From contig NC_092575.1 in the NCBI RefSeq assembly GCF_037975245.1, forward strand, positions 8,205,331 through 8,269,330: a DNA stretch of 64,000 nt, given 5' to 3'. The DNA comes from Apostichopus japonicus. Taxonomy: Eukaryota. Shown in pieces: positions 8,216-61,853 of this stretch. The translations under genes were made by a program, and so were the position numbers. Under the pieces are notes generated by a model. The model did no database searches. It saw nothing but the letters and a program-made list of their open reading frames with translations, and had not been told where the DNA came from. Each line of letters begins with the position of its first letter. Positions within the stretch are counted from its first letter, which is position 1.

Positions 8216-11200
8216 CTTGACTAGATTATGTTTACAGTGTACCAATTGAGTTGCTGCCTCAGTGGTGAGCATTTTGTTGATGATATTTGCGACCTGTGGA
8301 CTCATTGTCATACCAAAGTTGAACATAACCCCCGGGTATCTAACAGAGTTTGTTTGGACGGGAACATCCACACCAGCAACAGCCACAGACGGCAAATGGC
8401 TCCAATCCACTATAACCTCGTTTTGTCTGCATTGAGTTTAAGAAAGATGTACAAAAGCTTGTTTACAAGGTTTTTCCATGTTGCAGCTGGTGACATTTGA
8501 CCTTGCCCAATATAACGACAGCTGCCAACTAACTAAGGGAAAAGTTCATGCACTCATGTAGGCTGAGTGAGTTACGGTATCGTATTAACGAGCCAATTCG
8601 TCATGAACAATTCGTCATGCGCAGACATACGCAATCACCATCACATAGATTCTTTATGAATTAGGCGAATAATAAACAAAAGTCGAAAACATAAAGTTGA
8701 AAATTCGAGAAACAAGTCGAAATTTTGATATGAGCCAATATATCAGCCAATAGATAAAATTTTAAGAATTATAATAGTACTAATTGCATTTCCAAAGAGA
8801 AGTTGTGAGAAAAAAAGTGAGAAATCCACGGAGATTTAAAAAACATGAAAAGATAAAAGTTGGTTTTCACTATAGGTCCCATTTGAGCCACAGAAGCATC
8901 TACAAAAATACTCAAGTTCTTCTGATTAATATCCACAAAGCCCACCAGCTTCTGCTCATCCATCTTTGACGCCACTGCTTTATCATTTAACTCCGCTTGC
9001 AAGGGCCGATCCAGGATTTAAACCATAGTGACAACACTTCAAGTATAGTGATTTGATTAATTTCACGTTTTGACGTAAAAGAAAAAAAATTGTTGAAACT
9101 ATTTTCATTTATTAACAAAATGACCAATACACTCATATTTGAGTAGTGAACACAGCCTAGAATGTGATAAATTTCTATAGCATTAATTGGTTCTTAAATT
9201 GTCATAACAATGCAGACTAGTCAAGTTACGTTTCAAATAATTAAGACAAAGACTGTCAATGTGATTAAATTGGACATTATGATGTGGAGCAGCGTATATG
9301 CCACAAATATTTAGTAGGATATAAAGTTATATTAGTAGCCTAGCCTACTACTTTATTACATATGGTGAAAGAAGCTTCATCCATTCTAATGATACCATAG
9401 GTTTGAATAAGTTGCACTTACTAGTTCCGGCGAAATAACAGGATTGTAAAAAGTTCACCTTAGTTTTAACATTGCCGTTTTTGTGTTCCCAATAAATTCA
9501 AACTTTGATCTATATTGACCCAAGATGACTTTTGACCCCTGCATAACTTGACACGGTCTTTGTTCTCACTGAAAGAGATGCACATATTAAGTGTGAACAT
9601 CGTCCATGCGTCAATTTTGGACTTTTCAAGCCTACAAGGTTTCGGAATTTGACTTCTCCCTCCTGACCTTTGCTATTCGCAAAAACAATGCGGCTTTTAA
9701 ACGCACTGTGATGGATGTCTTTACCAATTTGAAGGTCATTCAAGTTTAACTTGCCTGCCTAAGGCAAGAAACAACTCGGGGAGGGAGGGATTGTCCCGGG
9801 CTCGTTGAACTAAATCTCCATGGAAGGGGGCCTCAGAAGAAAGACGTGAAATGGTCATATTAAGGCATATTTAGGCAATAAACAAGGCCTACACGCAAGT
9901 TTTAATGACGTCTTTTAACTTTATACCCCACAACAGATAATTGTCCGAAGTATTCGAGTCATAAATCTAGACTAGCACCTTTGGCGCTATACAATATTTT
10001 TGGATGCAACTTGTGACTGTAAAATTCTCTAACAACTTATGGCCGTTCGCCCCTGCAATTGTGTCCAAGAATTTGTACCATTGTACTTAATAGAGCGTCA
10101 CCAACTTGGTAAGATTTGAGTAAGATCAATTCACCATGAAAGCATACACCATCATCAGAAAGCCAGTTGGCTCTGTGATTAACCTGTGAGCTAATCCACG
10201 AGCCATTTTTTCACCATTAGAGACTGAAAACTGACAGGAACGTAGAAGCGCAGTTTAAAGCATGAATATGAACTCTACAAGCAATTTCATTTCCTGGATG
10301 ACTGTAGCCTAATGATCTATATTGCCCCTTCACAAAACTTCACTTGACCAGACTACGTTAAAGGCATTGAAGACTCGCCCCAAACCGCGTTCGGCCAGCT
10401 GAAAAAGTTAACTTTACGTTGCTTGCAAGTGACGTTTTGCTCGTGTCGCTACAAAATGCAGACAGTAATGAAACGTGAAACCGTGTTACCTTTAGCTGAA
10501 CCTGAGATGTCCATCGCTGTATCGTTTATACATTGTGCTGAAAACTGTCCTGGTGAAATATTTGGTCTGATGGGACATGTTCATGTCTTGTAACAAAAGT
10601 GAACTTGAAGCTAATGGAAGTGATGTCATAGATGTACACTGACAAAGTTGTTTTTATTTATAATCGTTATCAAATTTCCCTAAACAATTTGGACCCTTTG
10701 ACAACATGAATACCCCCTAGAATATAGGTATACGTAACTTCAACATACAATATTTTGCTGTCATTATGCAACTTTGACATCACACCTGTCTGCTTCACAT
10801 TAGCTTTTGGAGCAACCTGTGCAAGGTAGGAACACCATCCTCTTTCTTCATGTTATGATTTCTTTGTGACGATTTCCACTGGAGGGATAAAACTTCCTTT
10901 TCTTGGGCGGAAGGGTCGGGAAGGGGAGTTGGAAGATTGATAATATGCCTACTCTTTCAGGTTTGTTCTCAATGGTAGATCAAAATGGTTCTCAAAGCAG
11001 AAGGGGTCCAACAGTGTTGTCAGTTAGTCATTGTCAAAGAGCAGGAACTTAACACCTGCAGAGGAATATGGGTTAGGGACAAGACTGGCAATCAACAAAG
11101 ATCATCATTGAACATTCAACATGTTACAGTTAGCCTTGCTGCAATTTATGGTCAAGAAAAATGAAATAACAATCCATTTTTAAGGTTAACAAAATGCAAA

Positions 11201-11537
11201 TGTAATAACTGTTATATAAATGTACATTGATTATGTTGGTAATATACATTAGCTGGTAAAAACAAAATATGAAGCTGAAAGTTGCATCTGAAGAAATGAA
11301 TACAAGAGCGATTAACAACAGGGAGCATCAATTTCATGGGTGTAAATCCAGTGCTAAAGGAAAATAGAGTACAAGCATGTGGCCATCTACCATCTGACAT
11401 TTCACACCAACAGCGCCCAACATCATCTTCTCCCATCAGTAACTTGTGTAATTTGGTATTGGTCATGTTCCTGTTGTTATAGGATGTTCCTTGATAGCAC
11501 CAAAGAAATACTGCAAAACCAAATGTTATGATTGGCC

Positions 11538-11807
11538 TTAACCAGACTTGAACAGCAAGACTGCAACCTGCCCGAGGTAAAAGTAAATAAAGTGTTTCGT
11601 TTCATGGGTCACATAGCTTCCAAAATTGCGGCCAACAATACAGTGCCATGTTGGGCTGTATTTCTTGTCAAATTCCTTCTTGATAGATGCTGCAATGTCC
11701 TTTTCAATGTTGAATTTCTCCATTGCTTGATTGGAACAATCAATGGCATCTTGTTGCATCTCTTCCGTCATGTCAGCATTCTTGACAACAGCTTTCCTTT
11801 CAGACAT
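11538..11807 (-). CDS. DYNLL: Dynein light chain LC8-type (DYNLL1/DYNLL2 ortholog), a complete 89-aa CDS within a single exon
   Basis: The minus-strand ORF translates to [89 protein letters not shown]. It matches human DYNLL1 in length and is about 90% identical. A likely acceptor (tttttactcag|gaag) sits 24 nt upstream of the ATG, on the + strand at about 11832-11836. Confidence 0.9.
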
Positions 11808-13433
11808 TCTTGAAGCGAGGTTATTTTCTTCCTGAGTAAAAAGGAAAGATTTTAAGGTTATGTAGTGCTCAGTAGCCTAAGTTGTAATAAAGCATGAATG
11901 TGTTGTAACTAGGATAAAAATTTAAAGTTACATGAACCACCAATATTGTGCCATACAGCTAGCTGTTACCTTACCATGTCCCTATCTATATATGCCATCA
12001 CATCCAATCAGAGCATAATAGTGTTAACATTTTGTGCAGCAGTTTAAGTCACTTAACTTTCAGTGTACAAAACTGCTATACATCTTTGCACTTGAAGAGC
12101 AATTTGTCCACGTTGCTCTGCGGTACCGGATAAATAATGCCCTGCCAACAGAACAGAACGACCAAAATACTGTAATGATAGGCCACTCAGACTTTTGTTT
12201 GCATCATAAAAGCAACTTTGATTGTCAATAGAAGTGAACGTTACACACACTGATGCACAAGTTATGGCAAAGAGTCGCACAACAATTTTAGTTATCCACA
12301 TTGCTCATGAAATGATCCAGTACCCTCAGGAAAAAAAATGAAAACGAAAAACCACCCTGTATTCTGTAGGAAGGTGTCTTTTTCAAACCTAATTTAACAA
12401 AGCAATTTACAAGGGGTATATGGGGAATCATTTGCCAATCTGCCATTTTGGACAACTCCACTGGATAGGAAATCCAACAGGATGATGCATAGGCTAGGTG
12501 CACCTTTTTTGTATTTAATTAATCCTCAGTTTTGAGTAGCAAGTGGCAATGCAAAATGCTAATTTGATATCACACGAGTACCAAAACAAATACTTCACTC
12601 AAAGAAAAGTCTCAATGCCAACCGATTTCTCTTCTTTGTGAGGCCATCATTGAAAATTCATATATATTCACATATTTACACCAAGGACTTTATATGTATC
12701 CTATTTTAACATTTCCTGTTTAGAATATAGCATTTTGACCAAACTCCAAACAATGGGGGAAAAATCTACTTGATTATAAAGCCAGACTTTTCAAGATATG
12801 AACTGCAAATGCTGCAGAGTTGTGGTCAAATGCCTAAAACAATTCAAAAAATATGCAATGTTACATGTAAACCAAGAAAGACACATTACTTGTGACTGGA
12901 TTCGGAATACCATGACTAATGTGTCCACTTTTGTATAGCCTATGCACTTTTAGCCAACTGCACTATCCATACACTTGTAATTTCCTTTAAAAAAATTTAA
13001 AAAATCAGTTTCAGAAATTGAAATTCATCCATGGCTTGGGAAATGATTTATTTGATATTCCTAGGCAATTGCAAGCCTCCGCAAGGCGAAACTCATCCAG
13101 AATAAGACTGTCATTCTTTGTGCTTTGACCTAGCCTACCTATCGACAGAAATTCGTTCCAATCATTCCTGTACTAGCGTCAAGATAATCAGAAAACATTT
13201 TGAACCCATGGTCAATCATAGGATTAATTCCAAACAGCATTGAGTTTCTGCAATTTTTTTGGGACGACAATGTTGGTTCGTTATACATACCCATGCAGCT
13301 ACTGTAGCCTATACTCACCGTTTAGGATGAAAAGCTAGGTCTACCTAATGTTAGGCCTAGATAGGGTAAACACTACAGATGGAAAATATGTGGCCTATGA
13401 ACATTAGGATTCACACGTGAAGTCGTAACTCAC

Positions 13434-13730
13434 CAAAATAAAACGGTCAAATTTCGTTGTTGGAACACAGATGGGTCTTCAGATTCAGACACGGGTTCAA
13501 CACGTCAGGTTTGCTGCAATTACGAACAGTAAATGGTTGTATCGTTAAGCATAACAGGCAATAAGTACTGATACAGGGGATCTGTCATGTACAAAATTAT
13601 AGAAAATACTTGATTGTGATTGGATCATTATTTGCATTTTTTAGTAGGTTATAACGCTTCGGCCATCGTGCTAAGCGTTCGAGCGGTAAGATTTGTGATT
13701 GGTTAAAGTTGCGCAAGGTACAGTAGCTTA
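13434..13730 (-). promoter_or_regulatory. Candidate non-coding first exon and CCAAT-box promoter for the minus-strand DYNLL gene
   Basis: The minus strand shows a consensus donor ...ccgttttattttg|gtgagt (+13428-13433 = actcac). Upstream at 13590-13710 there are two ATTGG (reverse CCAAT) boxes (ttgtgattggatcatt, ttgtgattggttaaag) in GC-richer sequence. The inference rests on geometry only. Confidence 0.25.
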
Positions 13731-13949
13731 TAACAAAGCTTTCCTGACAACCAGAACCCTGGTAACAGTGTATACGTTACTATGCATTTTGTTAGAGCGC
13801 GAAGTTTGTGCTCACGTCAATAAATAAAATAGCATTTACCATCCCGTCTAGTCTGCATGGTAACTGGTACAGGTATACAAGTTTGGTATTCGAGCCAATG
13901 AAGGCTAGGGTGAGGAAGGGAGGGGTTAGGGAAGGGTAGCTTTTCTGCA

Positions 13950-14350
13950 ATAGTACCAGTGGCGTAGGAAGGTACTTTTGAGTGGGGGGGGGGCTGAAGA
14001 CTGATGGCCGGCCTGGGGGAGGGGCATAAGGGGAGGGGGTGTCCCCTCCCCTTTGGAATTTTTTTGCATTTCCAGGTGGCCTCAGATGCAATTTGGTGCA
14101 ATATAGCACACTTCAACTCCCACTCCATTTTGTAAAGAATTTTGCATTTTCACCTGGCCTTAAATGCAATTTGGTGCTCCAAATGAGATTTTTTTCTCAT
14201 TTGGAAATGAAAAAGGGGATTTCTGACTTGCGGAGCGGGGGGGGGGGGGCGGAATGATACTTCCGCCCCCCATATTTTTCACTGGGGGAGGCTGGCGCCC
14301 CCCCCCCAGCCCCCCCCCCCCCGGTTCCTACGCCCTTGAATAGTACAGAT
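13950..14350. repeat. Fragments of a G/C-homopolymer hairpin repeat family (cagtggcgtaggaagg...GGGGGGGGGG; ggggagggggtgtcccctcccc; ...ccccccggttcctacgcccttg). An internal ~65-bp tandem duplication lies at 14040-14200.
   Basis: The same motifs recur at 25770-27000, 60040-61600, 62590-62870 and 63240-63340. Confidence 0.5.
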
Positions 14351-14756
14351 CAGTGTAACTGATGGGTGAGGATAGCAAATGGAGGGACGGGGAATGAGAC
14401 ACAGGTAAATTGGAAATATTGTCCTTCAAAATGGATCAGCTATCAGTTGGCCTAAAAGAAGTCCAATTTTACCCATGCATGCAGTACGCGTGGTGACGAA
14501 CAGGCAGTCAACTTCTCACGATTTCGTCAAATTCAATCCATGTGCATCCACTGTAAAAGGACCTTAACAGAGATCTGTACAAATACAAAACAAGCTATAG
14601 TTTAGTGACTTTTTTTTAGAACACGGAGTGCATTGGCCTAGTAACGCCACTGATTGTCTATCCGATTTGGCCGGTAATTTCCGCTTGGCAGATGAATCCG
14701 GCTTGCAACGAACGAGAGTGTACTTTTGGCAAGCCGTTTGAACATTTCCCTCCCAA

Positions 14757-15065
14757 TTCCACTTAAGTGGAATACATTTTCACTTAAGTGGAATTGAATT
14801 TAACTTAAGTGGAATACATTTCACAATTGCCTCCACGTTAGTGGAATACATTTTGCCAATTTTACTTAAGTGAAATAGAATTTCGCTTGAGCAGAATGCA
14901 ATTCCACTTAAGTGAAATGGAATTTCACTTAAGCGAAATAGAATTGAGCTTAAGTGAAACATGGTGACCAGTTCATGAATTTAGCTTAAATGGAATTTAA
15001 TTTAACTTAAGTGAAATTGAATTCCACTTAAGTGAAATGCATTCCATGCACTTAAATGAATTCCA
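14757..15065. repeat. Satellite-like tandem array of about 20-22 bp, roughly 14 units (cacttaagtggaat.(a/g)aatt(t))
   Basis: Consecutive units cacttaagtggaatacattt / aacttaagtggaatacattt / cacttaagtgaaatggaattt and so on, with unit-to-unit variation. Confidence 0.7.
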
Positions 15066-16194
15066 CTTCGTTAAAAGCGGCTTGCCATATATCACTGCAG
15101 GCCATTCGGCAAAGCAAAAAAAAAAACACAATGGGATATAATGAAGCCCCTATTGGCGAAGACCTCGCAAACTGTAGCATTTTGAGATAATACTTGCTCA
15201 TTTGTTTACGCCCATGCTCGCAATACGTTAAATGAAATATTTAAAATACTCAATGAAATATCAGCATGAAAGTAAATCATCAACCTATAACTCACAATTA
15301 CCTGCAAGAGAGATATGTTATAACAAGAACACATGAACACATTCTCATTCTCTTATAAGCCTGCCATTGCTGCTTTGCTCAAGGATTGCATTATACTTGC
15401 AACGTAAAGGTGGTACTTATAATAATAGCTGACCAATCTCTTGATTTGTAGCTCTATGATTTTAGTTATTAACATGCGGACCGTTACGTGAATTACAACC
15501 GCTTACTTGTAGGGGAGAGGGATGCTATCTCGAAAAAGTGCGTCACTATATATATTTAGCTTCCCCTCTGTCCTCACATGAATGAATATAAAGATATGAT
15601 ATTGTTTATTTGATTGGTGGAACGGGGGTGGGGGGGGGGGGTTGTAATTGAGTGGTCCACACCTACTCCCGAACCCTCCCTTGACGTGACGCCTCTACGC
15701 ATATAGGCTAATCCCAGTGTTTGTTTCATTACAGTATCATCAAATGATGACGGCATCGCCCGGCGAATGTATTACAATTCTATATAAAAGTTTGGTATAC
15801 TGAAATGTCACTTTGACAGCAGATATAGAAAACATCCCTCATTAGACTATCCCCAGCCTCTCACAATCTTTTCTCCCCACATTCGCAGGTCTGCCCTCCT
15901 GGTCCCCCTTCCTTCCTTTCACCTCTGTAACTATATAACCGGGAGCTCCAATTGTTATACTCCTCAGAATGTTTCTCCACAACCAATAATCCTCTCATCA
16001 CTCCTTCCTTTCCATCTTCCTCTCCTTTGTTGTGCCTACTTTGCCTCTATTCATTGCTCATTTGTGGAATTAAACTGTCCGCCTGTGTCTCTTAATGAAT
16101 TCTTACTCTGTTTTGTTTTACACTGTTAACATCTGAATAAAGATTCGTCTGGGATCAAGAAGTCCCTCTTTCTTGTACATATGAAAATTAAAAT

Positions 16195-16198
<4 letters not shown>

Positions 16199-16274
<76 letters not shown>

Positions 16275-18250
16275 GTGCGTATCCAGGGGGGGGGCGTTGG
16301 GGGCGCGCGCCCCCTGGGTAAGGAAAAGAGGAGAGAAAAAAAGAGAAGAAACAAGGGAAAAGGAGGGGGGAAAAAGAAAAGGAGGAGAGGAAGGAAGGGA
16401 AAAGAAAAAGAAAAAAGAGAGAAAAAGGAAAAAAGGAAGGAGTAGAAGATAGCCAAGACCTCGGGAAGAGAAAGAGGAACAGTCATAGTTAAAGCGCTGA
16501 TCACTATTATATACACAGGGTAGCCAGTGACAGATCAAGGATTACGGAGGGGGGTGTGCGCCTCACCCTACCCCTTACACCGACAACTCCATTTTTGACG
16601 TTTCCATTTTTCCTCTCTCACTAATGTATCTATATAAATACTATATATATGGTCTATCATAACGCGTGTGTGTGTGTATGGACGCCTTAAACAATTGTAC
16701 AATTGTGCTATATGGAACCAACTGTGGCTGGTCTTGAACTCGACCGAGTCGTCGGGGTACATGACGCATTTCGGGAAGGGGGCGAACGCCCCCCCCCCCC
16801 CCGAGCAAATTTTCTTTATGACATCGCTAGTAATTTCAAAATAGACATTGCTTAGATGCAACTTTCAAGGCCTGGGAAGTGTCATTTCCAGCGATCTGGG
16901 AGGCATTTTCGGCCAAAATTTTGCTTGTACGCTTCGCGCCAACTCATGGTGGCGCTTCGCTTAGATAGTTTGCCTACAGGCTTCGCCCCTCCCTTGGCAA
17001 TTACTCGCTACACGCCTGTTCGAATTTTTAAAGCAAAGAGCAGATATAACATCATATCAGTGAGCATTGAAATGCATGTTCCACGATGAACAGCCTCAAA
17101 AACTGTCTATGTGTGTAGTTAAAGGCGTAGGAGCCCAATTGGATTTGGGGGCTGTAATGACTTGCCCGAAAAAAAGCCAAAATTTTTCGCGCGCGGAGCG
17201 CGCGTTCAACATATCGATGCCAATATCATATAAGCAAGCATCGGTCATTACAGTGCATAGCATCGTGCACCTTATGGTCCGTGAAAGTTCCACAGTATAC
17301 CGCTGGATGCTAACAACCAAATGTCTTATGTAGATGGAGAAAAATCATACAGATCCATTTATGTCAAAACTCTCTTTTACAAAGGTAATGTCGGCCAAGC
17401 TTACAACTTTATTTTAATTACCAAGGAGATCATTTTTAAGCTATTCATTGCTATTTATTTTTCTTTCAGTAGGTGCCCGAAAAAGATGGGGAAAAATTTG
17501 GTTGAGGGGGGGGGGAGGGGGGCTGCAGCCACCGCCTCCTACGGGACCTACGTCTATGTGTGTAGTGTTCGGTTTCGATATACCTCATATCGGAAATATC
17601 GGCTATTTTTCATTTCCTTCAACCAAGTTTTATAATAGCCGTTATAAGAGGTTGCAATATTTCTACACCAATAAATTAACTGTGTCGGAATTTTCCAAAA
17701 TTTCCTCACCAACATTCTTCATCATACTTTCCTCTACTCGTGCAACTTTGACCTGTCTGTTAGGGGTTCAAGGAGGTTTTTCTATATTGCTTGTCCATAG
17801 ACTGAATTTTGTGCAACATTATGGGTATGTTTTCAAGTGATTTTATTCACGAGAAATTTGAATTTTCAAATTCTCAACAAATAATCGGCTTAAAACCTTG
17901 AAAAGTGGGGCTTTCGGATATTGTGGGCCGTGACGTAGAATCACCTACAAAAGCAATCATCCATAGGACATGCAATCAGGTCGAACATGATGTGTGACTG
18001 GTGACAATCTGCAAAAAGGTTATGGATGGAAAAAACTTTTGGGAAACACTTGGTTCTCAGGCAAAAGTGTACATCTGGTTGGTCATTTCAAGCCCGAGAA
18101 GTGCTATTTCCGGTGATCTGGGGGGTATCAAAACCAGAAATTTTCTTGTACGCTGCGCGCCAACTGATGGTGGCGCTCCGCTTAGATAGTAATTCGCGCC
18201 CCCCGGGTTAGAAAATCCTGGATACGCGCCTGATATATATATATATAAAC
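16199..18250. mobile_element. Composite element of about 2 kb, bounded by inverted repeats (AT)n-CAGGTGCGTATCCAGG-Gn ... Cn-CCTGGATACGCGCCTG-(AT)n. It contains two copies of the GCGCCACCATCGGTTGGCGC hairpin sub-repeat.
   Basis: Left end at 16199-16310: (AT)~32, caggtgcgtatccaggggggggg and the perfect palindrome GGGGGCGCGCGCCCCC. Right end at 18190-18250: gcgccccccgggttagaaaatcctggatacgcgcctg followed by (AT)7. Inside lie a 140-bp poly-purine tract (16315-16460) and sub-repeat copies at 16868-16990 and 18035-18200. Confidence 0.45.
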
Positions 18251-18254
18251 GTTT

Positions 18255-19290
18255 ACTTATTAAGAGAAGACGAATCACATCATTCCATGAAAACAAAAAC
18301 TGTTAAATATTTGACTGCATTGAAACACTATAGTGGAACTATGTGTTGTTTGTGGACCAAAGACAGGCAGTGTCCTTCAAAAGAAAAGCAGGACAACTTG
18401 ATCAGATAACTAAGATTTGATTGAAATATTGCTGATTGTTATCCACTCTTCACATATTTTGTGTACAGTTAACTTATCGATTGTGTTTATATCAGTTTTA
18501 ATTTTAGTTCACCTGTAACCCATAAATATTAAAACTATGATCTGTGAACTGCGGTTATTTTTCAGGGTATTGTTAGCACCCCAAAACATGATCACGATTC
18601 CACCACGCAATTACTTTATCTGTATCAGACTCTGAGATTTTCCCAGGACCCATTTCCTCTTTATCCAGGGGAGAATTTAAAGCAGGTATAAGAATTAACT
18701 TAGATTTGGTGGAATAAGTTTCTTGATTACCGTACTACATCTAGTTAAAGTCTGTAAAGTGGTTTTGTTCGTTTCACTAAATGTCTCTAATGGGTGTTAA
18801 CTGGGTATGTTGGAAGCTTTCATCTCCATAAAGCTTTAGCAATGTCTCTCAAAATTTCAACAAAACTGTATATAAGTTCATCACCCTTCTGGGCATTGCC
18901 TATATAGACTTGCCCTATTTAATGGCCAATTTTACTTTTTTGAAGCTTTTACTGTAAGCTTTACTACGACCAAAGCAATTTAACCTTCATTCACAGACTT
19001 TAATGAAGTTACGCAGTTGGTTATCATTTATTGCTGTAAATCTCTCATTCCGTAGGAAATAACTCTACTGAAAGTTGTGCCTGCCAACTCAGCACTGCGT
19101 CTGCGTGCTATTCTTGACTTTGAAGATGCGAAGAAGGTCCAGGGACTTATATTACACTCCCAGGAAGGAGGTCATTGTTGATATATATATATATATGCCA
19201 GAGGAACCCTGATCAAACCAAACCAGGCCATCAAACTTAGGGCCCGCAAAGAGACCAAGGGCTCCCGGTTCCGCCCACTGGTGCATGACA
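18255..19290 (+). pseudogene. Decayed partial paralog of MVP. It comprises the promoter-proximal 270-bp unit, the 3' end of intron 1 with exon 2 (internal ~100-bp deletion), and exon 3 (internal deletion replaced by (AT)n).
   Basis: 18255-18440 aligns to 28277-28440. 18445-18700 aligns to 30270-30620, with the acceptor and exon-2 ends conserved but the middle missing. 19030-19275 aligns to 30740-30975, with 19190-19200 (AT)n in place of about 60 nt of exon 3. The reading frame is destroyed. Confidence 0.75.
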
Positions 19291-21378
19291 CCTCTACGCA
19301 TAAAGTCAAACAATAACAGCAGATATTACAGGGAACATGTTTCATATCAGATTGTACTATGTGGTAACTCTTTGATACACAATTTGTCGTTTGTAAAGTT
19401 CAAATTTATGCACGTCAATGATTTCTGTCTCGAAATAGAGTCAATATCCCTTTCGAAAATGGTGAACGTTCGACCCTAGTTATAGGACTTTAAAATGTTG
19501 TTACAATTTTGAATTTCATGTAACTTTAAAATATTAATAAATTAAAATTTGCTTCACCGTTGAGTGTGTGTGGGGGAGGGGGTGGGTAGGACGCCCCCCC
19601 ATTTTCCCGTGATGTGCACTTCATGCATATACGTTTTTACACTATCAAAATGTTCCCAACTGTTCTCCCTACTCACTGGCCCCCATCATCACTTTGGAAT
19701 TTCTGGTGCCCCCACTGGAAAAGGGACACAATCATACTCGGGGTGTCCTATAACTTGTGAAGGTTTTGTAAGCCAGTCTGACATATGAATTAACTGGAAA
19801 GGGAAGTTTGCATGCACTGAAGAATTATACATGTCGTACCGTGTACTGTATAGCACAAGGAAAGCTGGAAGATAAGATTAAATTTAGACTTCAAAAATAA
19901 CAGAACACTCTTGTATTTCTATGGTCTAAGTGTAAGAAATGCTTTCTACTGTATGCGATTAAGTTAGGGACTCGATAAGGATAAAACTACCGTATTGTTC
20001 TGACATGGCAATAATTATCATAAATGATGTATATATAGTGCCCATCCATTAGCATTTTTTGAAAACATGGATTATTTGGATCAGTGACACCAATAAAACA
20101 TGTTTTTTGCGTCGCAAGTACAATTTAAAGCAAAAAAAAAGTAAAAACAAATTGTACAATTTACACACATTACGTTGCAACGGCTTGATATGTACGGAGC
20201 AGCAGAATTGACACCATATTATTAACTTATATACATTACAAAACACTGAAAATCTCAAAATAACCGTTTTCAAATTAAGTATTTCTTGTAAAAACTTGTC
20301 ATAACTTGACAAGTCGTAATTAATACAGATTTTTTTTTTTGAAGAGAGGAAAAAGAACAGTTTAAGACGTTATTGCGCTTCCGTATTTACCTTGTTTGGA
20401 AGAAAATAGTTGCACCATTCAACGCAATGAGGAAGTTATGTATCAACCCTCTTAATAATGAATTCTACATTTACAAATTTATATTTTGTTTTTTAATTTA
20501 GCTAAAAATATCAATGAAACATTAAACGTAATTTTTTGATGCTTTTGGGGGTATTTTACTTATTAAATGTCTTAATGTTTCTGTTTTACTGGACGAATGT
20601 AGTTATGAGCAGCTACCATATTTTAGGAAAATAGGGGTTAGTATTTGTTGACGACGTAGTGATGAGAGACAAAAATAAACATTACGTGTTTCTTACACCC
20701 TAGCAAAGCCCTGTATTGAATCAGCTCCGTCGAGTGTGATATCCAGAATCAATACAGTCGTATCCGGAACAGGTCGTGTAGATGTATGTCTGATGCACTG
20801 GTGAGCTTCGAATTGGTTACCTTCTGTAAGTATGAATAAGCTATTAATACTGTTGGATAGACACATCTTTGCATATTTCTAGGCTAGGCCTAGGTATTGT
20901 AATATATACGATCATATACTTCCTTCGTCCTTCCTTAAAGAAAAAACACTTACTGTAGGTTTGGCCTAGCCTAGTATTATTACAAGTGTACACAGGCCAG
21001 GATACCCATAGCACTTACGTTAGGGCTTGGTATGCAAAGTAATGGTTCATTGGTCATATGACACAAGCAGAATTATGAAGTACTTCCTCAGAGTTAGACT
21101 GTATAGCTGATACTGATAGTCATAGAAAGTTACACCACAAAATGTAATAATTGACGCAAAATGTCATCTTAAACCAGATATGTAATAACATTCGCCACAA
21201 AATGCAATCTTAACAGCAAATATAATAACTATTTTGACGCAACATGTAATTATCCTTTAACGAGGTACACAATACCTTCTTGATGCAAAATGTAATCAAA
21301 ATTTAAAGAGAAATTTAATAATGCAAATTGTAATTACTTTTGTTCATGTCATACTTGGAAATACTTTTATGGATAGAT

Positions 21379-25769: not shown

Positions 25770-27290
25770 GTCCCCAGCGACGTAGCCAGGAATTTGAAAG
25801 GGGGGGAGCACTTTTTGCGATTGATATGGATTTTCAAAGTTGTAGGCACGACTATCTGAGCGGAGCCCCACCATCGGTTGGCGCAGAGCGTACAAGAAAA
25901 TTTTTGGTTTACAAACCCCCCGGATGGCAGGAAACAGCCCTTCCCGAATGTTCATTCTGGTTCCCTGGCCTGTTGCTAACTTGTGAATCCTCATTCAATA
26001 TCACTTTTAAACCGGAAAAACAAACGAGTTAAAATAGTACGTAATTCAATAATACATAATGTATTAAAATTAGCAAGGTACACAAGGGCGGCGAAGCACT
26101 TTTAATCTGGAGAGGGCACCGGCGTCAAAGGGCACTTTGCAGAAATTCTATTGGACTGATGCAGCCTGATATTTAGTACCCTTTATAAATCTTATTGTAT
26201 TATCTTATTTGCGTATACACATCACTCCATCACCCTCCCCCCCCCCCCCCCCCGTCTTAGTAGTCTTACTTTTCAACTTCTGATACTTGTAGATATAAAG
26301 ATAGGCCAGAAATGTCTTTGATACAACCATAGCCAGTAATTGTCTTTGATAAAACTGTAGCTAGTAACTGTTTATCGAAAAGGCTGTTTTGGAACTTGGA
26401 ACGCCGATCGTGACAACAACAGGCAACAAAGTGCTGCAGCTCTATACATATAAAGTCTGTTAATCAACGATAGGCTTATTTGACTGTGGAATGTTCTCAA
26501 CTGAAATTTTATCTGCGTAAACGGGTTCTTAAGTAGATGTTAAAAAACTGACAAGATCGTATCCTAGTCTTTTTCGGCGGGTAGAGTATTGAATGAAACG
26601 GCACGTGATATGAATGACAGCCTAGATGACAGAAGAATAGGTCACCTACTGTAATTTAGCCATTATCTTGCTATGTTCATTTCAATAGTTTTTCCTGTCT
26701 AGACTCTTAAACTCGTCCAGCAAGCTTATGGATTTGAATTATGGGTGTATTAATAAAAAAGATAACTTGGCCAAAAAAAGTGTAGGCCCGGGCCTACAGT
26801 GCTTCATACTGGCTACGCCCCTGATAGTTCTAAATTAGGATTAGATCTCTTACTGAAATATCGCTGACCTAATAAGGTGATTAAGAGTACAAGTTTTATG
26901 TAGAAAAAAGGCACATTTTTAACCTGAGGAAAAGTGGGGGGGGGCACTTGCCCCCTGTGCCCCCCGGTTCCGCCGCCCTTGAAGGTACATGTACAGAGTA
27001 GTCTTACTTTTCAACTTCTGATACTTGTAGATGCAAAGATAGTCCAGAAATGTCTTTGATACAACTGTAGCTAGTAAATGTTTAAGTTAGCCTAATAAGA
27101 GAAGGCGAGAGCTATCCGACGATTGCCATCTGATGCAAATTTCTCAAGTGTTTTCTCAACTGAAATATTATCTGCGTAAACGGGTTCTAAACTACATGTT
27201 AAAAAACTGACAAGATCGGATCCTATAGTCTTTTTCGGCGGGTAGAGTGTTGAATGAAACTATTGTGCTACATACTGGCTACGCCCTAAT
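25770..27290. mobile_element. Composite MITE-like repeat. It is built from ends such as cagcgacgtagccagg...Gn and ...ctggctacgcc, internal TIRs CAAGGGCGGCGAAGCAC ... GGTTCCGCCGCCCTTG (26080-26990), one copy of the GCGCCACC..GGTTGGCGC sub-repeat (25840-26000) and a duplicated ~270-bp block (26230-26600 and 26990-27260).
   Basis: Extensive block-wise similarity to 60040-61600. The TIR pair at 26080-26100 and 26955-26985 is reverse-complementary. Poly-G/poly-C tracts sit at the block junctions. Confidence 0.5.
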
Positions 27291-28269: not shown

Positions 28270-28870
28270 TGGGGAATACTATTACTTATTAAGAAAATGA
28301 ATCATATCATTCCACAATTCATTCTGTAACAAAAATTGTTAAAAATTGAACAGCATGAACAGGCAGTGTCCTTCATAGTAATAATATCAAAATCAGATTT
28401 GATTGAAATATTGAGCTGATTGTTACCCATTTAAATAGCCTGAGAAATTACTTATCAAGCTATGTCTGTTATGATTGTATGTTTATTAAGAGCAGACTAA
28501 GTGAGGATGATGCCAAAAAAAATGATAGATTATTCAGTACATACAAATCCAAAACTGATCTGTCATATTACAAATTCATATCATTCCATAATAACAAAAA
28601 ATTGTTAAATATTTATGAACAGGCATTGTCCTTCATAGGAAAAGTAGAACCACTGGATCAGATAACTAAGATTTGATTGAAATATTGAGCTGATTGTAAT
28701 CCATTGGAATAGCCTCAGAAATGACTTATCTAGCTCTGTTACGATTGTATGTTTATAATCTAGACTAAGTGAGAATGGAACCAAAAAATGATAGATTATT
28801 CAGTACATACAAATCCAAAACTGATCTGTCAATCATACAAATTGGTCAATTTACAAATATGTATTTTTCA
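28270..28870 (+). repeat. Tandem duplication of a ~270-bp unit (about 2.3 copies) immediately upstream of the first coding exon of MVP. A further copy heads the MVP pseudo-paralog at 18255.
   Basis: Unit: tcatatcattcca...caggcagtgtccttcata...gatttgattgaaatattgagctgattgt...agactaagtgag.atg..ccaaaaaa.tgatagattattcagtacatacaaatccaaaactgatctgtca. It repeats at 28270-28560, 28560-28830 and partially at 28760-28870. Confidence 0.65.
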
Positions 28871-28926
28871 ATTTGCTTTTCTTTCAGACTTTGACGGATA
28901 ATCAGTAAATTCTTGCTAAGATCAAA

Positions 28927-29081
28927 ATGAGTCGAGGATCAAGAGGGGAACAGAATGGGCAGTCGAATGATTCTATTTTTAGAATTCCGCCTTATTACTA
29001 TGTTCATGTACTGAACCACAATACCAATGTAACCAAGGTCGAGGTAGGCCCCCAAACCTACATCAGACAGGACCATGAAAG
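28927..29081 (+). CDS. MVP: Major vault protein, coding exon 1 ([51 protein letters not shown] + 2 nt). The exon probably begins at 28888, after the acceptor ctttcag.
   Basis: Matches the human MVP N-terminus [35 protein letters not shown]. Donor gaaag|gtaagg at 29082. Confidence 0.85.
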
Positions 29082-29699
29082 GTAAGGAATATTCTTTGAT
29101 CCACAGCATTCTTATACCTGATGTCTAGTAATCATCGTAATCTGGTGAACATATTAATTCCCTACCCTGTAATTCAATGATTCAGATTTCCACTTTAGCC
29201 AAATTCATTGTTTCTCCATATAAGCAACACAAGCACCTCTACAAGACTGGTTTCTTAAAGCACCCTACATGGTTCCCTATTACAGAGAACTGACAACACT
29301 GTGGGCCAAAGACAAGTTGCATGCAGGCCGGCCAAACTTAGATATTTCATCCTTTAATGAATTCCAAATTTCCACGTATTCCAGCCAGTCTTTGATACAT
29401 GATTCATATTGTTTCCTTCATTTTTTGTAGCTTTCAAAACCTCTATGCAATTACTCTTAAAATAAAATTGCTATCAAATATACCAAAGTCAGTCAGATTT
29501 CATTCATAGCACCCATGGTTTCCCTAAAGTCCACCAAAGACCCCAAATGAAAATGTACAAATCATGTTTTCGTTATGTTGTCATCCTGATAATTATTGTT
29601 AGCACCCATTTGTTAGTCACAAATAAAAGGAAGAAAGAAATATGCAATCAGTAACCACAATAAAAAAGAATTCTTAATAAAACAGAACATTAGAGAGCA

Positions 29700-30260
29700 G
29701 TAATGACTAGGGTGGTTCGGTATATCAATATACCAGGTATACCTGGTAATACCAGTAGGTATATCGGTATCTGTTTAAACTTATACCGGCTCACCCTAGT
29801 ATTGACTAGTGATTATTACTCACGTTTCCTGATAGCTTCCTGGAGTAGTACATCTTCACTATCACCTAGGATTGCTAAACCGATATACCGGTTTAATGGT
29901 CATTTGGTTCATACCCATACTGACGGTATTGAAAGCTGTCTTCAACGAATACACCGAAATACCAGGTGTATATATCCGAAACAACCTTGAATACCTGGTA
30001 AAAATAATACCTTATGAAAAATACCAACCCAGTTGCTTCAAAAGAAAAACAGAGATGGGAAAGTCGTAGTATTAATATCGCTAATCATTTGTAGGCTAGG
30101 CTAGTGTTCATTGTCACAGTTAAGGCTGGAAGTAGCGGTTCCGCAAAAATTTCCAGTTTACCCAGTAATTCGGTATTCGTCATCGGGTATACCGGTATCT
30201 GTGTTTGCTTATACCGATGCACCCTCCTATCACCTGCTAGTGCTGGTACCTGGTGTTTTC
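29700..30260. mobile_element. Palindromic MITE-like insertion in MVP intron 1
   Basis: Inverted repeat actagggtggttcggtata...ataccggctcaccctagt at 29705-29800, with the internal palindrome accaggtatacctggt. A related half-copy lies at 30110-30250 (ggtataccggtatctgt.t..cttataccg..caccct). Confidence 0.45.
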
Positions 30261-30382
30261 AGTTCTTCACATTTTTTTTGTTCAGTTAGCTTATCGATTG
30301 TGTGTATATCAGTATTAATGTTAGTTCACCTGTAACCCATAAATATATAAACTATGATCTGTAAACTGCGGTTATTTTTCAG

Positions 30383-30578
30383 GGTATTGTTTGCACCTCA
30401 AAACATGATCACGATTCCACCACGCAATTACTGTATCATTGAAAACCCAGCCCAACATGATGGAGATGGTAACGTTGTACTTGACCAGAATGGACAGGTT
30501 AAGCTTTATCATGCAGACTCAGAGATACGGTTTTCCCAGGACCCATTTCCTCTTTATCCAGGGGAGAATTTAAAGCAG
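30383..30578 (+). CDS. MVP: MVP coding exon 2 ([66 protein letters not shown])
   Basis: Acceptor ttatttttcag|g, donor aagcag|gtaaga. Aligns to human RVLFAPMRMVTVPPRHYC...DPFPLYPGE. Phase-consistent with exon 1. Confidence 0.9.
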
Positions 30579-30748
30579 GTAAGAATTAACTCAGATTTAG
30601 TGGAATAAGTTTCTTGATTACTCCACAAAGTCTGTAAAGTTGTTTTGTTCGTTTCCCTAAATGTCTCTGATGGATGTTACTGGACATGTTGAAAGCTTTT
30701 ATCCCCACACAGCTTCATTAATGATTCTCAAAATCTCTCATTCCCTAG

Positions 30749-31099
30749 GAAATAACTCCACTGAAAATTGTGCCTGCCAACTCAGCACTGCGTCTGCGTG
30801 CTATTCTTGACTTTGAAGATGAGCAAAAGCAAAAGTATGTGGCTGGTGATGAGTGGCTCTTTGAAGGTCCAGGGACTTACACTCCCAGGAAGGAGGTCAT
30901 TGTTGATGCAACGATTAGAGCAACAGTGATCAAACCAAACCAGGCCATCAAACTTCGGGCCCGCAAGGAGACCAAGGACCGTAGCGGTAGTGACAGAGTC
31001 ACTGGAGAGGAGTGGCTGGTTAAGAAAATTGGAGCATACCTTCCTGGAGCTTACGAAGAAGTTATTGGGGTTGTCAACGCTTACGTGCTGACAGATAAG
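30749..31099 (+). CDS. MVP: MVP coding exon 3 ([50 protein letters not shown]...[33 protein letters not shown])
   Basis: Acceptor ttccctag|ga, donor gataag|gtttgc. Strong identity to human DITPL...[19 protein letters not shown]...TGEEWLV. Confidence 0.92.
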
Positions 31100-31929
31100 G
31101 TTTGCTTTACATGTCACTGTTAAGTTCAAAAGATGTTCAGTTAGGTGTAGTTAGCTGACAAGCAAATCTGAGTTGGCAGACTGCAAAATTGTGGTATGAA
31201 GACCAACATAATTTAATGAATTATGCAACGACGTAACTGCATTTGCAGTACATTTAGTAGCTTGCTTTAAGCTTACAAGACTATTAACTGTAGATGGGTA
31301 ATTTATGAATTTTGTGGGAAGCTAACATCTCTGATACTGTGTAAAAGTAAGTGGGCCTGACATTTCGAACCTAGCAGGATCTTCTTCAGAGGCTGAATGA
31401 CAAGTAACAGAAACTACAAGGGACAAATTCAAATACAGAATGCAGACAGGTTAATGAGCAGGGTGAACACAAAAGAGGTTTGATGTAAGAGGATAAGTAG
31501 ACAAAGGATGGAGAGAAGAAAGAAACCAACAGGGTTAAGAGAGATAAAATCCTCTTACATCATCTTGGCAAAATTTATCCTGACAGAATGAGACAGTTAT
31601 TTTGTTGTTGTATATTAGTTGAAGGTTTAATCATTTGATTTTTTCATGCACATATAAGGCCTATCACTATATGCTTCTGTTGTGCCCAAGCAAATGTGTT
31701 GTCAGGGGTTATTATTATTAAGTATTGTGGGATCATGTAGAGGTATTTTAAGGTGCATGTTTCCATGGAGGACTGCAGGGATGCAAGTTTTCTGAGTGGA
31801 CAGATGTTGCCTCCCTTTGGGCTCAGCTTTTAAATTCCTAGTGACCGTACTGAGTGTAATATAATAACACAATGTACTTCACTCTCATGTAACCCTTTAC
31901 TTTGTTATTTCTGGAATAGGAGGCACTCC

Positions 31930-34918: not shown

Positions 34919-35463
34919 GTTAGTTCTTGTAAAGGAAGCAATTAGTTAGGATGAAGTTTGATTCTTTGAAGTGATTGCAATCAATTTAATACTGTTGCAT
35001 GCTTACAAGTTTCTTTATTTCTTTTTAATTTTATTTATTTAGTCATTCCCAGTCAGTTACTCATCTGTGTCATGTTTAGCAGGTTAATGGTGATTTAGCT
35101 GTATGTAGTAGTTGTTATATCTACTAAAAACTATTTCATCTGTTAATTATTAGATGAAGATTTGACCACATAAGTCATGTTTGATCTTTATTCTTGTTAA
35201 TGGTGGTTACTTGTGAAGGTTCATAAGAAGTAAAATGGGTAACTATGTGGGCAGATTGTTATCAAGTTGCTGTGGTGAGTGATTTTGCTATACTTGTGCA
35301 CCCAATGCTTATTAAAGTTTGCAAAATCTCAAGAGAAATAATGATATAACCAGGAGAAAGTAGGAAGAAGTATTTATAGGGTAAGTTGATTGATGTTAAA
35401 GGTAGTTGGGACGGAGAGTGAAGTGAAAGTTGAATCAGAGTTGTTGATGTTTCATCTCTTCAG

Positions 35464-35699
35464 ATCCGAGCTGTGGCAGGCATCACCTACATGTTGAATC
35501 AAGACGAGGAGCTGTGGGCCAAAGAGCTCCCTCCAGCAGTGGAGAAACTCCTTCAGACCATGAGGGACCCTCTTGCAGATCGTAGTGACCGTAGTGGGAC
35601 CCCTGAGGTTAGAGTAAGGGAGAAGACCAGAGTTGTGACCTTCAGAGTGCCTCATAATGCAGCGGTCCAGATATACGATTACAAAGAGAAGAAAGCTAG
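35464..35699 (+). CDS. MVP: MVP coding exon 8 ([32 protein letters not shown]...[23 protein letters not shown] + 2 nt)
   Basis: Acceptor tctcttcag|at, donor gctag|gtgaat. Matches human [30 protein letters not shown]...[24 protein letters not shown]. Confidence 0.92.

Positions 35700-61757: not shown

Positions 61758-61853
<96 letters not shown>

What the first reader, a model, noticed from the sequence alone, without database searches (positions are those of the whole stretch)
18255..19290. Decayed MVP gene fragment about 10 kb upstream, sandwiched between transposable-element termini, suggesting TE-mediated gene-fragment capture
18255-18440 matches the 270-bp unit found immediately upstream of MVP. 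18445-18700 matches the end of intron 1 plus exon 2 with a ~100-bp internal deletion. 19030-19275 matches exon 3, with an internal deletion filled by (AT)n. Exon 1 and most of intron 1 are absent. The left breakpoint (18252) coincides exactly with the right terminus of the composite TIR element at 16199-18250. At the right breakpoint the exon-3 homology switches abruptly to ...gctcccggttccgcccactgg, which resembles the MITE-family TIR ccccggttccgccgcccttg. This layout is what Pack-MULE or MITE-style transduction of host gene fragments produces, rather than a plain segmental duplication.
Basis: partly seen in the sequence, partly recalled or inferred. Interest (0 to 1): 0.6.

Follow-up and report, generated by a model that had tools for sequence, protein, structure and literature searches.

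The report
Decayed MVP gene fragment beside transposons
About 10 kb upstream of the sea cucumber major vault protein (MVP) gene lies a dead 1-kb copy of part of that gene, probably pasted into a break-prone, transposon-derived spot during DNA repair; this is a known kind of event in animal genomes, not a new mobile element.

Summary
Window 18253-19260 (Apostichopus japonicus) is a decayed partial copy of the MVP 5' region. It comprises about 190 bp of the 270-bp upstream unit, then the last 119 bp of intron 1, exon 2, all of intron 2 and the first 229 bp of exon 3. Substitution-level identity is about 92-93%. The copy has stops and frameshifts, and changes fall on all codon positions. No exon 1 and no other MVP remnant exists elsewhere in the window.

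The Pack-MULE/MITE reading is only partly supported. The left-hand element (16272-18232) is a complete, separate hAT-like element inserted into an (AT)n tract, and the fragment lies outside it. The right junction does carry a 12-nt exact match to the TIR of a hAT-like MITE family (TIR CAAGGGCGGCG, 8-bp TSD). That junction belongs to a 50-nt block (19259-19310) with a diverged sister copy at 15663-15711. No TIR pair or TSD brackets the fragment, and copy number could not be tested.

My best reading is one transposition-independent, repair-synthesis ("gap-filling") capture into a broken TE-derived site, followed by neutral decay. This corresponds to the single-copy animal Pack-TIRs of Tan et al. 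2021. Low interest.

The parts
18253..18445 (+). Copy of the first ~190 bp of the 270-bp unit that is tandemly duplicated just upstream of MVP. It carries a 48-bp stretch absent from parental copy B.
   Evidence: 18363-18445 = 28619-28703 (88%). 18253-18320 = 28282-28356. 90.2% identity over 123 ungapped columns, K2P 0.105.
18447..18565 (+). Copy of the last 119 bp of MVP intron 1, acceptor site retained. It is joined to the upstream-unit copy at an imperfect 11-nt microhomology (frag TGTTATCCACT; unit TGTAATCCATT; intron TGTTTTCAGTT).
   Evidence: 91.6% identity, no gaps, K2P 0.089. (7/11 unit-vs-intron matches; p=0.012 for a random pair of parental positions).
18566..18685 (+). Pseudo-exon 2. 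It has 76 bp of deletions (38+33+5), a frameshift and a premature stop; the GT donor is retained.
   Evidence: 95.8% identity, K2P 0.043. The translation [19 protein letters not shown]... then falls out of frame.
18686..19055 (+). Copy of the whole of MVP intron 2 (170 bp in the parent) plus about 185 bp of extra sequence of unknown origin (about 18838-19023).
   Evidence: 90.4% identity over 166 columns, K2P 0.104. The extra piece has no match elsewhere in the window.
19056..19260 (+). Pseudo-exon 3, covering the first 229 of 362 nt of the parent exon. It has a 37-bp deletion, a 5-bp insertion, and (AT)7 at 19181-19196 replacing about 9 nt; it contains an in-frame stop.
   Evidence: 94.6% identity, K2P 0.056.
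19261..19310 (+). TE-derived block B, directly abutting the MVP copy. It consists of a TIR-like motif (CCCGGTTCCGCC at 19264-19275; up to 19/25 matches to the E2' right end through 19281) followed by TGCA and TGACACCTCTACGCATAAAGTCAAA.
   Evidence: 12-mer; related to 15663-15711, 35/56 matches, core 21/25, and only 3 of 5000 random 53-mers score as well.
15663..15711 (+). Sister copy A of block B, in the same orientation (...CTCCCGAACCCTCCCTTG ACG TGACGCCTCTACGCATATAGGCTAA). About 50 nt upstream lie an inverted TIR-like motif (GGTGGAACGGGGG, 15616-15628) and a poly-G run, which is the layout of a mini-MITE.
16164..16195 (+). Candidate left piece of the disrupted second copy (25/34 matches to 15564-15596), lying directly left of the (AT)n. 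This is a weak hint only.
   Evidence: score 12, reached by 13.7% of shuffles, so not significant by itself; only its position is as predicted.
16199..16271 (.). (AT)36 microsatellite, the left part of the tract split by the E1 insertion. The right part is 18233-18250, followed by AAACG and then the fragment.
   Evidence: (AT)n of >=5 units occurs at only 3 places in the 64-kb window, and two of them touch the fragment.
16272..18232 (+). E1, a complete hAT-like non-autonomous element. Its TIRs are CAGGTGCGTATCCAGG / CCTGGATACGCGCCTG (15/16 complementary) and it has an internal 107-bp direct repeat (16863-16969 / 18086-18190). It is inserted in the (AT)n. The MVP fragment lies outside it.
   Evidence: A related copy in the 2017 assembly is not flanked by (AT)n.
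28282..28843 (+). Parental tandem pair of the ~270-bp unit, immediately upstream of the MVP start codon (28927).
   Evidence: 28302-28576 vs 28576-28843, 77%.
30264..30977 (+). Parental segment that was copied: end of intron 1, exon 2, intron 2 and the 5' part of exon 3 of MVP.
26083..26981 (+). E2', the reference member of the hAT-like MITE family whose TIR matches the right junction. It has perfect 11-bp TIRs (CAAGGGCGGCG / CGCCGCCCTTG) and an 8-bp TSD (AAGGTACA).
   Evidence: A second member lies at 60911-61575 (TSD 6/8) and a further right end at 14338.

Best explanation
The feature is a non-mobile, non-processed pseudogene fragment.

Proposed sequence of events:
1. One DNA-level copying event took two non-adjacent pieces of the MVP 5' region. 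These were about 190 bp of the promoter-proximal repeat unit, and the stretch from 119 bp before exon 2 to 229 bp into exon 3, introns included.
2. The two pieces were joined at a short imperfect microhomology.
3. They were deposited 9.7 kb upstream in the same orientation.
4. The landing site was a break-prone, transposon-derived spot: the second copy of a ~150-nt local repeat that contains a mini-MITE with a poly-G/hairpin core. The core of that repeat was replaced by (AT)n plus the MVP filler. Only the mini-MITE's right TIR and its flank (19261-19310) remain recognisable.

The most likely mechanism is double-strand-break repair by synthesis with template switching. This is the transposition-independent 'gap filling' that generates single-copy Pack-TIRs in animals. 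Afterwards the copy decayed neutrally through deletions, a frameshift, stops and an internal (AT)n. A separate hAT-like element (E1) inserted into, or already sat in, the adjacent (AT)n.

Shown:
- the composition, order and orientation of the copied pieces
- their equal age
- the neutral decay
- the TE-related identity of the right junction
- the absence of a bracketing TIR pair or TSD

Inferred:
- that a break in the TE-derived repeat initiated the event
- that copying was by repair synthesis
For: 1. Introns and upstream non-coding DNA are retained, so the event was DNA-level.
2. All non-coding pieces have the same distance (K2P 0.089-0.105). Exon pieces have about half that (0.043-0.056), as expected for one event followed by decay of only one copy in exons.
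3. Polarised with Holothuria, 25 exon changes are on the fragment lineage (codon positions 11/11/3) against 5 on the parent. Stops and a frameshift are present.
4. The fragment is isolated. No exon 1 and no other MVP piece occurs anywhere else in the window.
5. The internal join shows 7/11 microhomology.
6. The right junction matches a hAT-like MITE TIR 12/12. That 12-mer (<=1 mismatch) otherwise occurs only at two true element ends in about 145 kb.
7. The junction block 19259-19310 has a sister copy at 15663-15711 (3/5000 random controls). MVP homology stops within 1-2 nt of where that block begins.
8. Two of the three (AT)n loci in the 64-kb window sit at this fragment's left edge and at one of its internal lesions.
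9. The parent is 9-12 kb away on the same strand. This matches the cis bias (<15 kb), hAT predominance and breakpoint microhomology reported for animal single-copy Pack-TIRs (PMC8277862).
Against: 1. Only one side shows TE-derived sequence with statistical support. The predicted left piece (16164-16195) is not significant.
2. The sister blocks A and B are only about 63-84% identical, and neither recurs elsewhere in the sequence available. They may therefore be an old local duplication rather than a TE family.
3. The outermost 7 nt of the TIR are poorly conserved at the junction.
4. CACTGG at 19276-19281 can equally be read as parental MVP sequence.
5. The (AT)n could be an unrelated microsatellite.
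6. A later deletion ending in a neighbouring element would produce the same right junction.
7. No empty-site allele or outgroup locus could be obtained.
Confidence: 0.5

Rival explanations
1. A plain small local segmental duplication of the MVP 5' region, by replication slippage or unequal exchange, with no transposon involvement. Under this reading the TE proximity is secondary. E1 inserted later into a nearby (AT)n. A later deletion, one of many in this decaying copy, happened to end in a neighbouring TE-derived block.
For: The copy lies on the same strand, 10 kb away, with introns retained. It carries many independent deletions of 5-76 bp plus the loss of a 1.56-kb parental interval, so deletions are frequent here. 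TE termini are dense in the window, with at least 16 in 64 kb. No TIR pair or TSD is present.
Against: Both outer breakpoints lie within about 20 nt of rare features: a TE terminus or (AT)n on the left (about 1% by chance) and a family-specific 12-mer on the right (about 0.5%). MVP homology ends exactly where the A/B block begins. There is no trace of the sequence that the postulated deletion would have removed.
Confidence: 0.3
2. One reading: a mobile Pack-type (Pack-MULE/MITE-like) chimeric element captured the MVP fragment and transposed to this site.
For: TE termini lie on both sides, and the right-hand motif is in right-terminus orientation with the fragment on the 'inside'. The hAT-like MITE family is real and has clean TIR/TSD members nearby.
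Against: The left terminus belongs to a different, complete element and faces the wrong way. No CAAGGGCG-type left end occurs between 15 and 18.25 kb. No 8-bp TSD matches TGCATGAC. The TIR-like motif is followed by 28 nt that are also shared with the sister copy, so 19281 is not an insertion boundary. The junction sequence was not found in the only external collection that could be scanned (that collection is not expected to contain this genome).
Confidence: 0.05
3. The fragment is the last recognisable relic of a larger or complete tandem duplicate of MVP that has otherwise been deleted or overwritten by transposon insertions.
For: The copy has tandem orientation and lies close to the parent. 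The region is TE-rich and deletion-prone.
Against: tblastn with the full A. japonicus MVP (word size 2, E<=50) and blastn (word size 7) of 27-42 kb against the rest of the window found nothing outside 18253-19260. Exon 1 is missing between two retained pieces that have a microhomology junction. Equal distances of all pieces fit a single compact event.
Confidence: 0.1

Closest known systems
Single-copy Pack-TIRs of animal genomes (Tan et al. 2021, Nat Commun 12:4280; PMC8277862)
   Same: A host gene fragment is copied at DNA level from a parent less than 15 kb away on the same chromosome. The associated element is hAT-type. Microhomology is present at a junction. The locus is apparently single-copy, with no sign of transposition. 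The inferred mechanism is gap filling at a break inside a resident TE.
   Different: Only one TE-derived flank is demonstrable. The copy comes from two non-adjacent parental segments and is 37% of the parental span, so it is older and more rearranged than their cut-offs allow. The flank is a two-copy local block rather than an annotated consensus TE.
Pack-MULEs of rice and other plant Pack-TYPE elements (own knowledge; PMC8903248 listed)
   Same: Gene fragments with introns are found next to TIR-element termini.
   Different: Pack-MULEs have both TIRs of one element, a 9-10-bp TSD, are often multicopy, and are usually unlinked to the parent. None of these features is seen here. No Mutator-like element is involved; the TSD of the local family is 8 bp (hAT-like).
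Filler DNA / abortive gap repair at Ac/Ds and P-element sites (own knowledge; cited as background in PMC8277862)
   Same: Break repair copies nearby ectopic sequence, leaves a terminal TE remnant, and involves template switches at short homologies.
   Different: There is no evidence here that excision by a transposase made the break. An (AT)n tract or a poly-G hairpin could equally be the fragile site.
Non-processed (duplicated) pseudogene fragments from microhomology-mediated replication or repair (FoSTeS/MMBIR-type; own knowledge)
   Same: The copy is a patchwork of two nearby template segments in the original order. It has a microhomology junction, short unrelated insertions and retained introns, and it evolves neutrally.
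   Different: Those models need no transposon. Here the right junction is TE-related beyond chance.

Membership tests
Pack-TIR (operational definition of Tan et al. 2021) | Internal non-TE sequence of 100-5000 bp with an unambiguous parental copy | tested here: met
   1008 bp (18253-19260). The unique parent is at 28282-28703 plus 30264-30977.
Pack-TIR (operational definition of Tan et al. 2021) | Flanked on both sides by pieces of the same TIR element, each covering >=10 bp of the consensus terminals | tested here: not met
   Right side: 12/12 match to TIR positions 8-19 and 19/25 overall, but the outermost 7 nt are poorly conserved. Left side: the neighbour is a different, complete element (E1) facing away. 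No CAAGGGCG-type left end is present. The candidate left piece is not significant.
Pack-TIR (operational definition of Tan et al. 2021) | >=90% identity to the parent and a length ratio of 80-120% | tested here: not met
   Identity is 92-93% in ungapped columns, so that part is met. The length ratio is 1008/2696 = 37% and the copy is made of two segments, so that part is not met.
Pack-TIR (operational definition of Tan et al. 2021) | Parental copy has no TE within 100 bp of its ends (control for segmental duplication) | tested here: met
   The nearest recognisable terminus upstream of 28282 is at 27986, 296 bp away. The right end lies inside exon 3.
Mobile Pack-type element (Pack-MULE-like transduplicate) | Target-site duplication flanking the whole chimera | tested here: not met
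   The right flank is TGCATGAC. No matching 8-mer followed by a terminus occurs anywhere in 14-19.26 kb. The left flank is (AT)n.
Mobile Pack-type element (Pack-MULE-like transduplicate) | Additional copies of the same chimera elsewhere with different TSDs | not testable with these tools
   The rest of the A. japonicus genome is not searchable here. The junction gave 0 hits in metagenome contigs. The 2017 assembly contig diverges at 15549, before the fragment.
hAT-superfamily non-autonomous element (applies to the flanking MITEs, not to the fragment) | 8-bp TSD and short TIRs starting CA/TA | tested here: met
   E2' (26083-26981) has TIR CAAGGGCGGCG, perfect over 11 bp, and TSD AAGGTACA 8/8. 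E3' (60911-61575) has a TSD matching 6/8. The superfamily assignment from TSD length rests on general knowledge; no transposase is present in the window.
Non-processed (duplicated) pseudogene fragment | Introns/non-coding parental DNA retained; reading frame disabled; neutral substitution pattern | tested here: met
   The end of intron 1 and all of intron 2 are retained. Stops and a frameshift are present. Fragment-lineage changes at codon positions 1/2/3 number 11/11/3. Exon distance is about half the intron distance.
Processed pseudogene / retrocopy | Introns removed, poly(A) tail | tested here: not met
   Introns are present and there is no poly(A) at 19260.
Helitron gene capture | 5'-TC ... 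CTRR-3' ends with a 3' hairpin, inserted between A and T | tested here: not met
   By inspection, no 5'-TC follows the (AT)n (the sequence there is AAACGTTTAC) and there is no CTRR end at the right boundary of block B (GTCAAA).

The most novel reading that the evidence does not exclude
The TE-end-plus-MVP chimera is not a dead end. Either it is one member of a multicopy, mobilisable Pack-hAT family in a sea cucumber, or it is transcribed and yields antisense or small RNAs (or an upstream decoy promoter piece) that act on MVP. The fragment retains about 190 bp of the promoter-proximal unit and intact splice signals.
Probability: 0.07. Interest if true: 0.5.

Novelty: new member of a known kind. 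Interest (0 to 1): 0.22.

Why it matters
The value is mainly as a worked example. It shows, in an echinoderm, the same signature that Tan et al. described for vertebrate and insect genomes: a short gene fragment copied in cis into a transposon-derived, break-prone site without transposition.

In practice, the fragment is a source of spurious MVP-like exons in gene prediction and of multi-mapping reads for MVP exons 2-3.

It also shows that the 17-kb DYNLL-MVP intergenic region is a hotspot of local rearrangement: tandem units, a two-copy TE-derived block, (AT)n tracts and nested MITEs.

Nothing suggests a function.

Tried and rejected
1. Homology beyond the flanking elements. BLAST of 12-24 kb against the window found none, so there is no hidden larger duplication. 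Sensitive protein and nucleotide searches confirmed this.
2. A bracketing TIR pair or TSD. None was found.
3. E2' as a second example of 'flank capture'. Its interior (26259-26823) matches its own right flank (26997-27286) at about 89-92%, but both end at another MITE's terminus. They are more simply two copies of that MITE, so I did not use this as support.
4. A second view of the locus. XP_071850069/70/71 are not in the gene-position index. The 2017 assembly's MVP contig starts in mid-gene. Its DYNLL contig matches 8240-15549 at 99.7% and then diverges completely. A Logan transcript proved to be from another species, at 83% identity. The Holothuria leucospilota locus has no upstream fragment, and its weak exon-1-like hit is noise.
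5. A long collinear alignment of 15.4-16.2 kb against 19.2-20.2 kb with permissive gap costs scored no better than shuffles and was discarded. Only the 50-nt block survives strict scoring.
6. The predicted left TE piece was not significant.
7. (AT)n as a target preference of the E1 family was rejected, because the E1-like copy in the other assembly is not in (AT)n.
8. Known RNA families and tRNAs: none found in the window.
9. The metagenome scan for the TIR 19-mer returned mostly GC-rich bacterial chance hits.
10. Helitron and retrocopy readings were rejected by inspection.

Full report
**Organism and setting.** The window is from the sea cucumber Apostichopus japonicus. A near-full-length protein assembled from the exon hits is 98% identical to XP_071850070.1, 'major vault protein-like isoform X2'.
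- MVP runs from the ATG at 28927 to about 41830 on the + strand.
- Exon 1 is 28927-29081, exon 2 is 30383-30578 and exon 3 is 30749-31110.
- The upstream neighbour is a single-exon dynein light chain LC8 gene on the - strand (11807-11541).
- The feature therefore lies in a roughly 17-kb divergent intergenic region. No transposase-sized ORF is nearby.

- 18447-18620 = 30264-30437 (92.5%, E=1e-69)
- 18626-18858 = 30514-30737
- 19038-19260 = 30731-30977
- 18363-18445 = 28619-28703 (88%)
- 18253-18320 = 28282-28356

The '270-bp unit' is a tandem pair at about 28282-28843, directly upstream of the MVP start.

A global alignment shows that the copy is continuous from the last 119 bp of intron 1 through exon 2, the whole of intron 2 and the first 229 nt of exon 3. 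The lesions are:
- a 76-bp loss in exon 2
- about 185 bp of extra sequence in intron 2
- a 37-bp loss in exon 3
- replacement of about 9 nt in exon 3 by (AT)7

The parental interval 28704-30263 is absent. It holds the rest of the unit, exon 1 and most of intron 1. The two retained pieces meet at an imperfect 11-nt microhomology (7/11; p about 0.012 for a random pair of parental positions).

**It is a dead copy made in one event.**
- The pseudo-exons contain a frameshift and stops.
- With Holothuria leucospilota as outgroup, 25 exon differences arose on the fragment lineage, at codon positions 1/2/3 = 11/11/3. Five arose on the parent lineage.
- The three non-coding pieces have the same distance from the parent (K2P 0.105, 0.089, 0.104).
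- The two exon pieces have about half that (0.043, 0.056). This is expected if all pieces were copied together and only the copy is free to change in exons.
- For scale, two A. japonicus assemblies differ by 3.8% in MVP introns and exons. The duplication is therefore old relative to polymorphism but far younger than the split from Holothuria, which has no such fragment.

**It is not the tip of a larger duplicate.** tblastn with the full MVP protein (word size 2, E up to 50) found nothing outside 18253-19260. Neither did blastn with 7-nt words of 27-42 kb against the rest of the window. BLAST of 12-24 kb shows that homology does not resume beyond the flanking elements.

**The left side.**
Its TIRs are CAGGTGCGTATCCAGG / CCTGGATACGCGCCTG.
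- It is flanked on both sides by (AT)n (16199-16271 and 18233-18250). It is thus a complete element sitting in a microsatellite.
- The MVP copy starts 20 nt to the right of the element's right terminus, after (AT)n and AAACG. It therefore lies outside the element.
- A related copy of this element in the 2017 assembly is not in (AT)n, so the microsatellite is a property of this locus.
- (AT)n tracts of five or more units occur at only three places in the 64 kb. Two of them touch the fragment: its left edge and the exon-3 lesion. That is unlikely to be chance. It points to the microsatellite being either the fragile landing site or a by-product of the repair that built the copy.

**The right side.** MVP homology ends at ...GAGACCAAGG (19260) and is followed by GCTCCCGGTTCCGCCCACTGG.
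- CCCGGTTCCGCC is identical to part of the right TIR of a MITE family. I could define this family cleanly in the window.
- E2' (26083-26981) has perfect 11-bp TIRs (CAAGGGCGGCG / CGCCGCCCTTG) and an 8-bp TSD (AAGGTACA).
- E3' (60911-61575) has a TSD matching 6/8. A further right end lies at 14338.
- An 8-bp TSD is the hAT hallmark (general knowledge).
- With at most 1 mismatch, the 12-mer occurs three times in about 145 kb of holothurian DNA: two true ends and this junction.
- Exact terminus-derived 12-mers lie outside recognised elements at about three sites in the window. This gives roughly a 0.5% chance of one falling within 25 nt of an outer breakpoint.
- The motif is in right-terminus orientation, so the element body would lie where the MVP copy now is.

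**A new point that changes the picture.** The 28 nt after the motif (TGCA TGACACCTCTACGCATAAAGTCAAA, to 19310) are not anonymous flank.
- The only other occurrence of that block in all the sequence held is at 15687-15711.
- There it again lies 3-4 nt after a TIR-like motif (CCCGAACCCTCCCTTG) in the same orientation.
- The two-part blocks 15663-15711 (A) and 19259-19310 (B) share 35/56 positions, with a core of 21/25. Only 3 of 5000 random 53-mers from the window align to B as well.
- Copy A is preceded by an inverted TIR-like motif and a poly-G run, the layout of a roughly 80-nt mini-MITE.
- Position 19281 is therefore not an insertion boundary of a mobile chimera. B is the right-hand remainder of a second, older copy of a TE-derived local repeat.
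- MVP homology stops within 1-2 nt of where B begins.
- The matching left remainder would be expected just left of the (AT)n. A candidate does sit there (16164-16195 against 15564-15596, 25/34). It is not significant on its own, because 13.7% of shuffles score as well, so I count it only as a hint.

**Mechanism.** Tan et al. (PMC8277862) found 370 Pack-TIRs in 100 animal genomes.
- 208 of them are associated with hAT elements.
- Most are single-copy, and 57% lie within 15 kb of the parent.
- Microhomology is present at breakpoints.
- They are explained by transposition-independent gap filling after a break inside a resident TE.

The present case shares several of these features: the cis distance (9-12 kb), the same-strand patchwork of nearby templates, the microhomology junction and the TE-derived right flank. 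It fails their operational definition on two counts. Only one flank is demonstrably TE-derived, and the copy is 37% of the parental span.

For a mobile Pack-type element the tests are negative. There is no paired TIR, no TSD, and no boundary at 19281.

My best-supported reading (about 0.5) is one repair-synthesis capture into a broken TE-derived/(AT)n site, followed by neutral decay. The main rival (about 0.3) is a TE-independent small duplication whose right end was later trimmed by a deletion into the neighbouring block. A relic of a larger tandem copy (about 0.1) and a truly mobile chimera (about 0.05) are less likely.

**What could not be done.** The rest of the genome is not searchable with these tools.
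- The RefSeq proteins are not in the gene-position index.
- The 2017 assembly gives no view of the fragment. Its DYNLL contig is 99.7% identical over 8240-15549 and then diverges completely, and its MVP contig starts in mid-gene.
- The junction sequence has no hit in metagenome contigs.
- Copy number and empty-site alleles, the decisive tests, therefore remain open.

**Verdict.** The feature is a new member of a known kind and of low general interest.

Noticed in passing
window 25775-27290: Nested MITEs. E2' (26083-26981; perfect TIR CAAGGGCGGCG, TSD AAGGTACA) is inserted into another MITE (left TIR CAGCGACGTAGCCAGG at 25775). E2' itself carries a copy (26259-26823) of the host MITE's right part (26997-27286, 89-92%). 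That copy begins at the same base, 7 bp from the TSD. This could be coincidence, a hotspot, or post-insertion copying of the flank.
   Followed up: partly
window 40376-41083 (MVP gene); L001 5514-5866: A 78-79-bp tandem array of about 9 copies at 94-98% identity, which reads in frame as ...[13 protein letters not shown]... The 2017 assembly has only about 4.5 copies. RefSeq lists MVP isoforms of 1035, 1022 and 866 aa. This looks like a copy-number-variable repeat spanning an exon end near the MVP C-terminus.
   Followed up: partly
window 15549/15550; L004 (MRZV01000292.1): The 2017 assembly is 99.7% identical to the window over 8240-15549. It then continues with at least 6.3 kb of unrelated sequence starting CACGGGAAAAAG. 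The switch is exactly at the ATATATAT that begins the TE-derived block A. This is either a large insertion polymorphism or a misjoin.
   Followed up: partly
window 16863-16969, 18086-18190, 25851-25946, 60116-60218, 60413-60544, 61338-61424; L002 971-1067 and 43148-43259: A subterminal module of about 100 nt (...CTATCTAAGCGGAGCGCCACCATC.GTTGGCGCG.AGCGTAC...) is shared by several hAT-like MITEs. It is also present in Holothuria leucospilota at 75-92% identity. That is unusually well conserved for a MITE interior across families of sea cucumbers. It has no Rfam or tRNA match.
   Followed up: partly
window 29700-30230 (MVP intron 1): A cluster of small TIR elements of another family (CTAGGGTGGTTCGGTATA ... 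TATACCGGCTCACCCTAG, with a second right end near 30228). They may post-date the duplication, which would make the parental interval missing from the fragment shorter than 1.56 kb.
   Followed up: no
window 61762-62015: The only other (AT)n/(ATAC)n cluster in the window lies 190 bp from the right end of MITE E3'. It is followed by a 144-nt, 93% self-complementary palindrome (61872-62015).
   Followed up: no
window 35150-37037 vs L001 1-1945; window 8240-15549 vs L004: Divergence between the two A. japonicus assemblies is very uneven. It is 3.8% substitutions, plus many indels, inside MVP, but 0.3% on the DYNLL side. The 2017 MVP contig may be a divergent haplotig.
   Followed up: partly
L009 709-748 (Ga0066191_10052628): An environmental metagenome contig (44% GC) carries the same 19-nt terminus with a similar subterminal context (ggggcacatactcccagtgcccccggttccgccgcccttg). 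Related MITEs therefore exist in another, unidentified eukaryote.
   Followed up: no
window 28876-28926: The sequence just upstream of the MVP ATG (ttttctttcag|actttgacgg) looks like a splice acceptor. MVP may therefore have an upstream non-coding exon. If its promoter lies beyond 18 kb, the fragment would sit inside MVP's first intron. This could not be tested, because the only transcript retrieved was from another species.
   Followed up: partly
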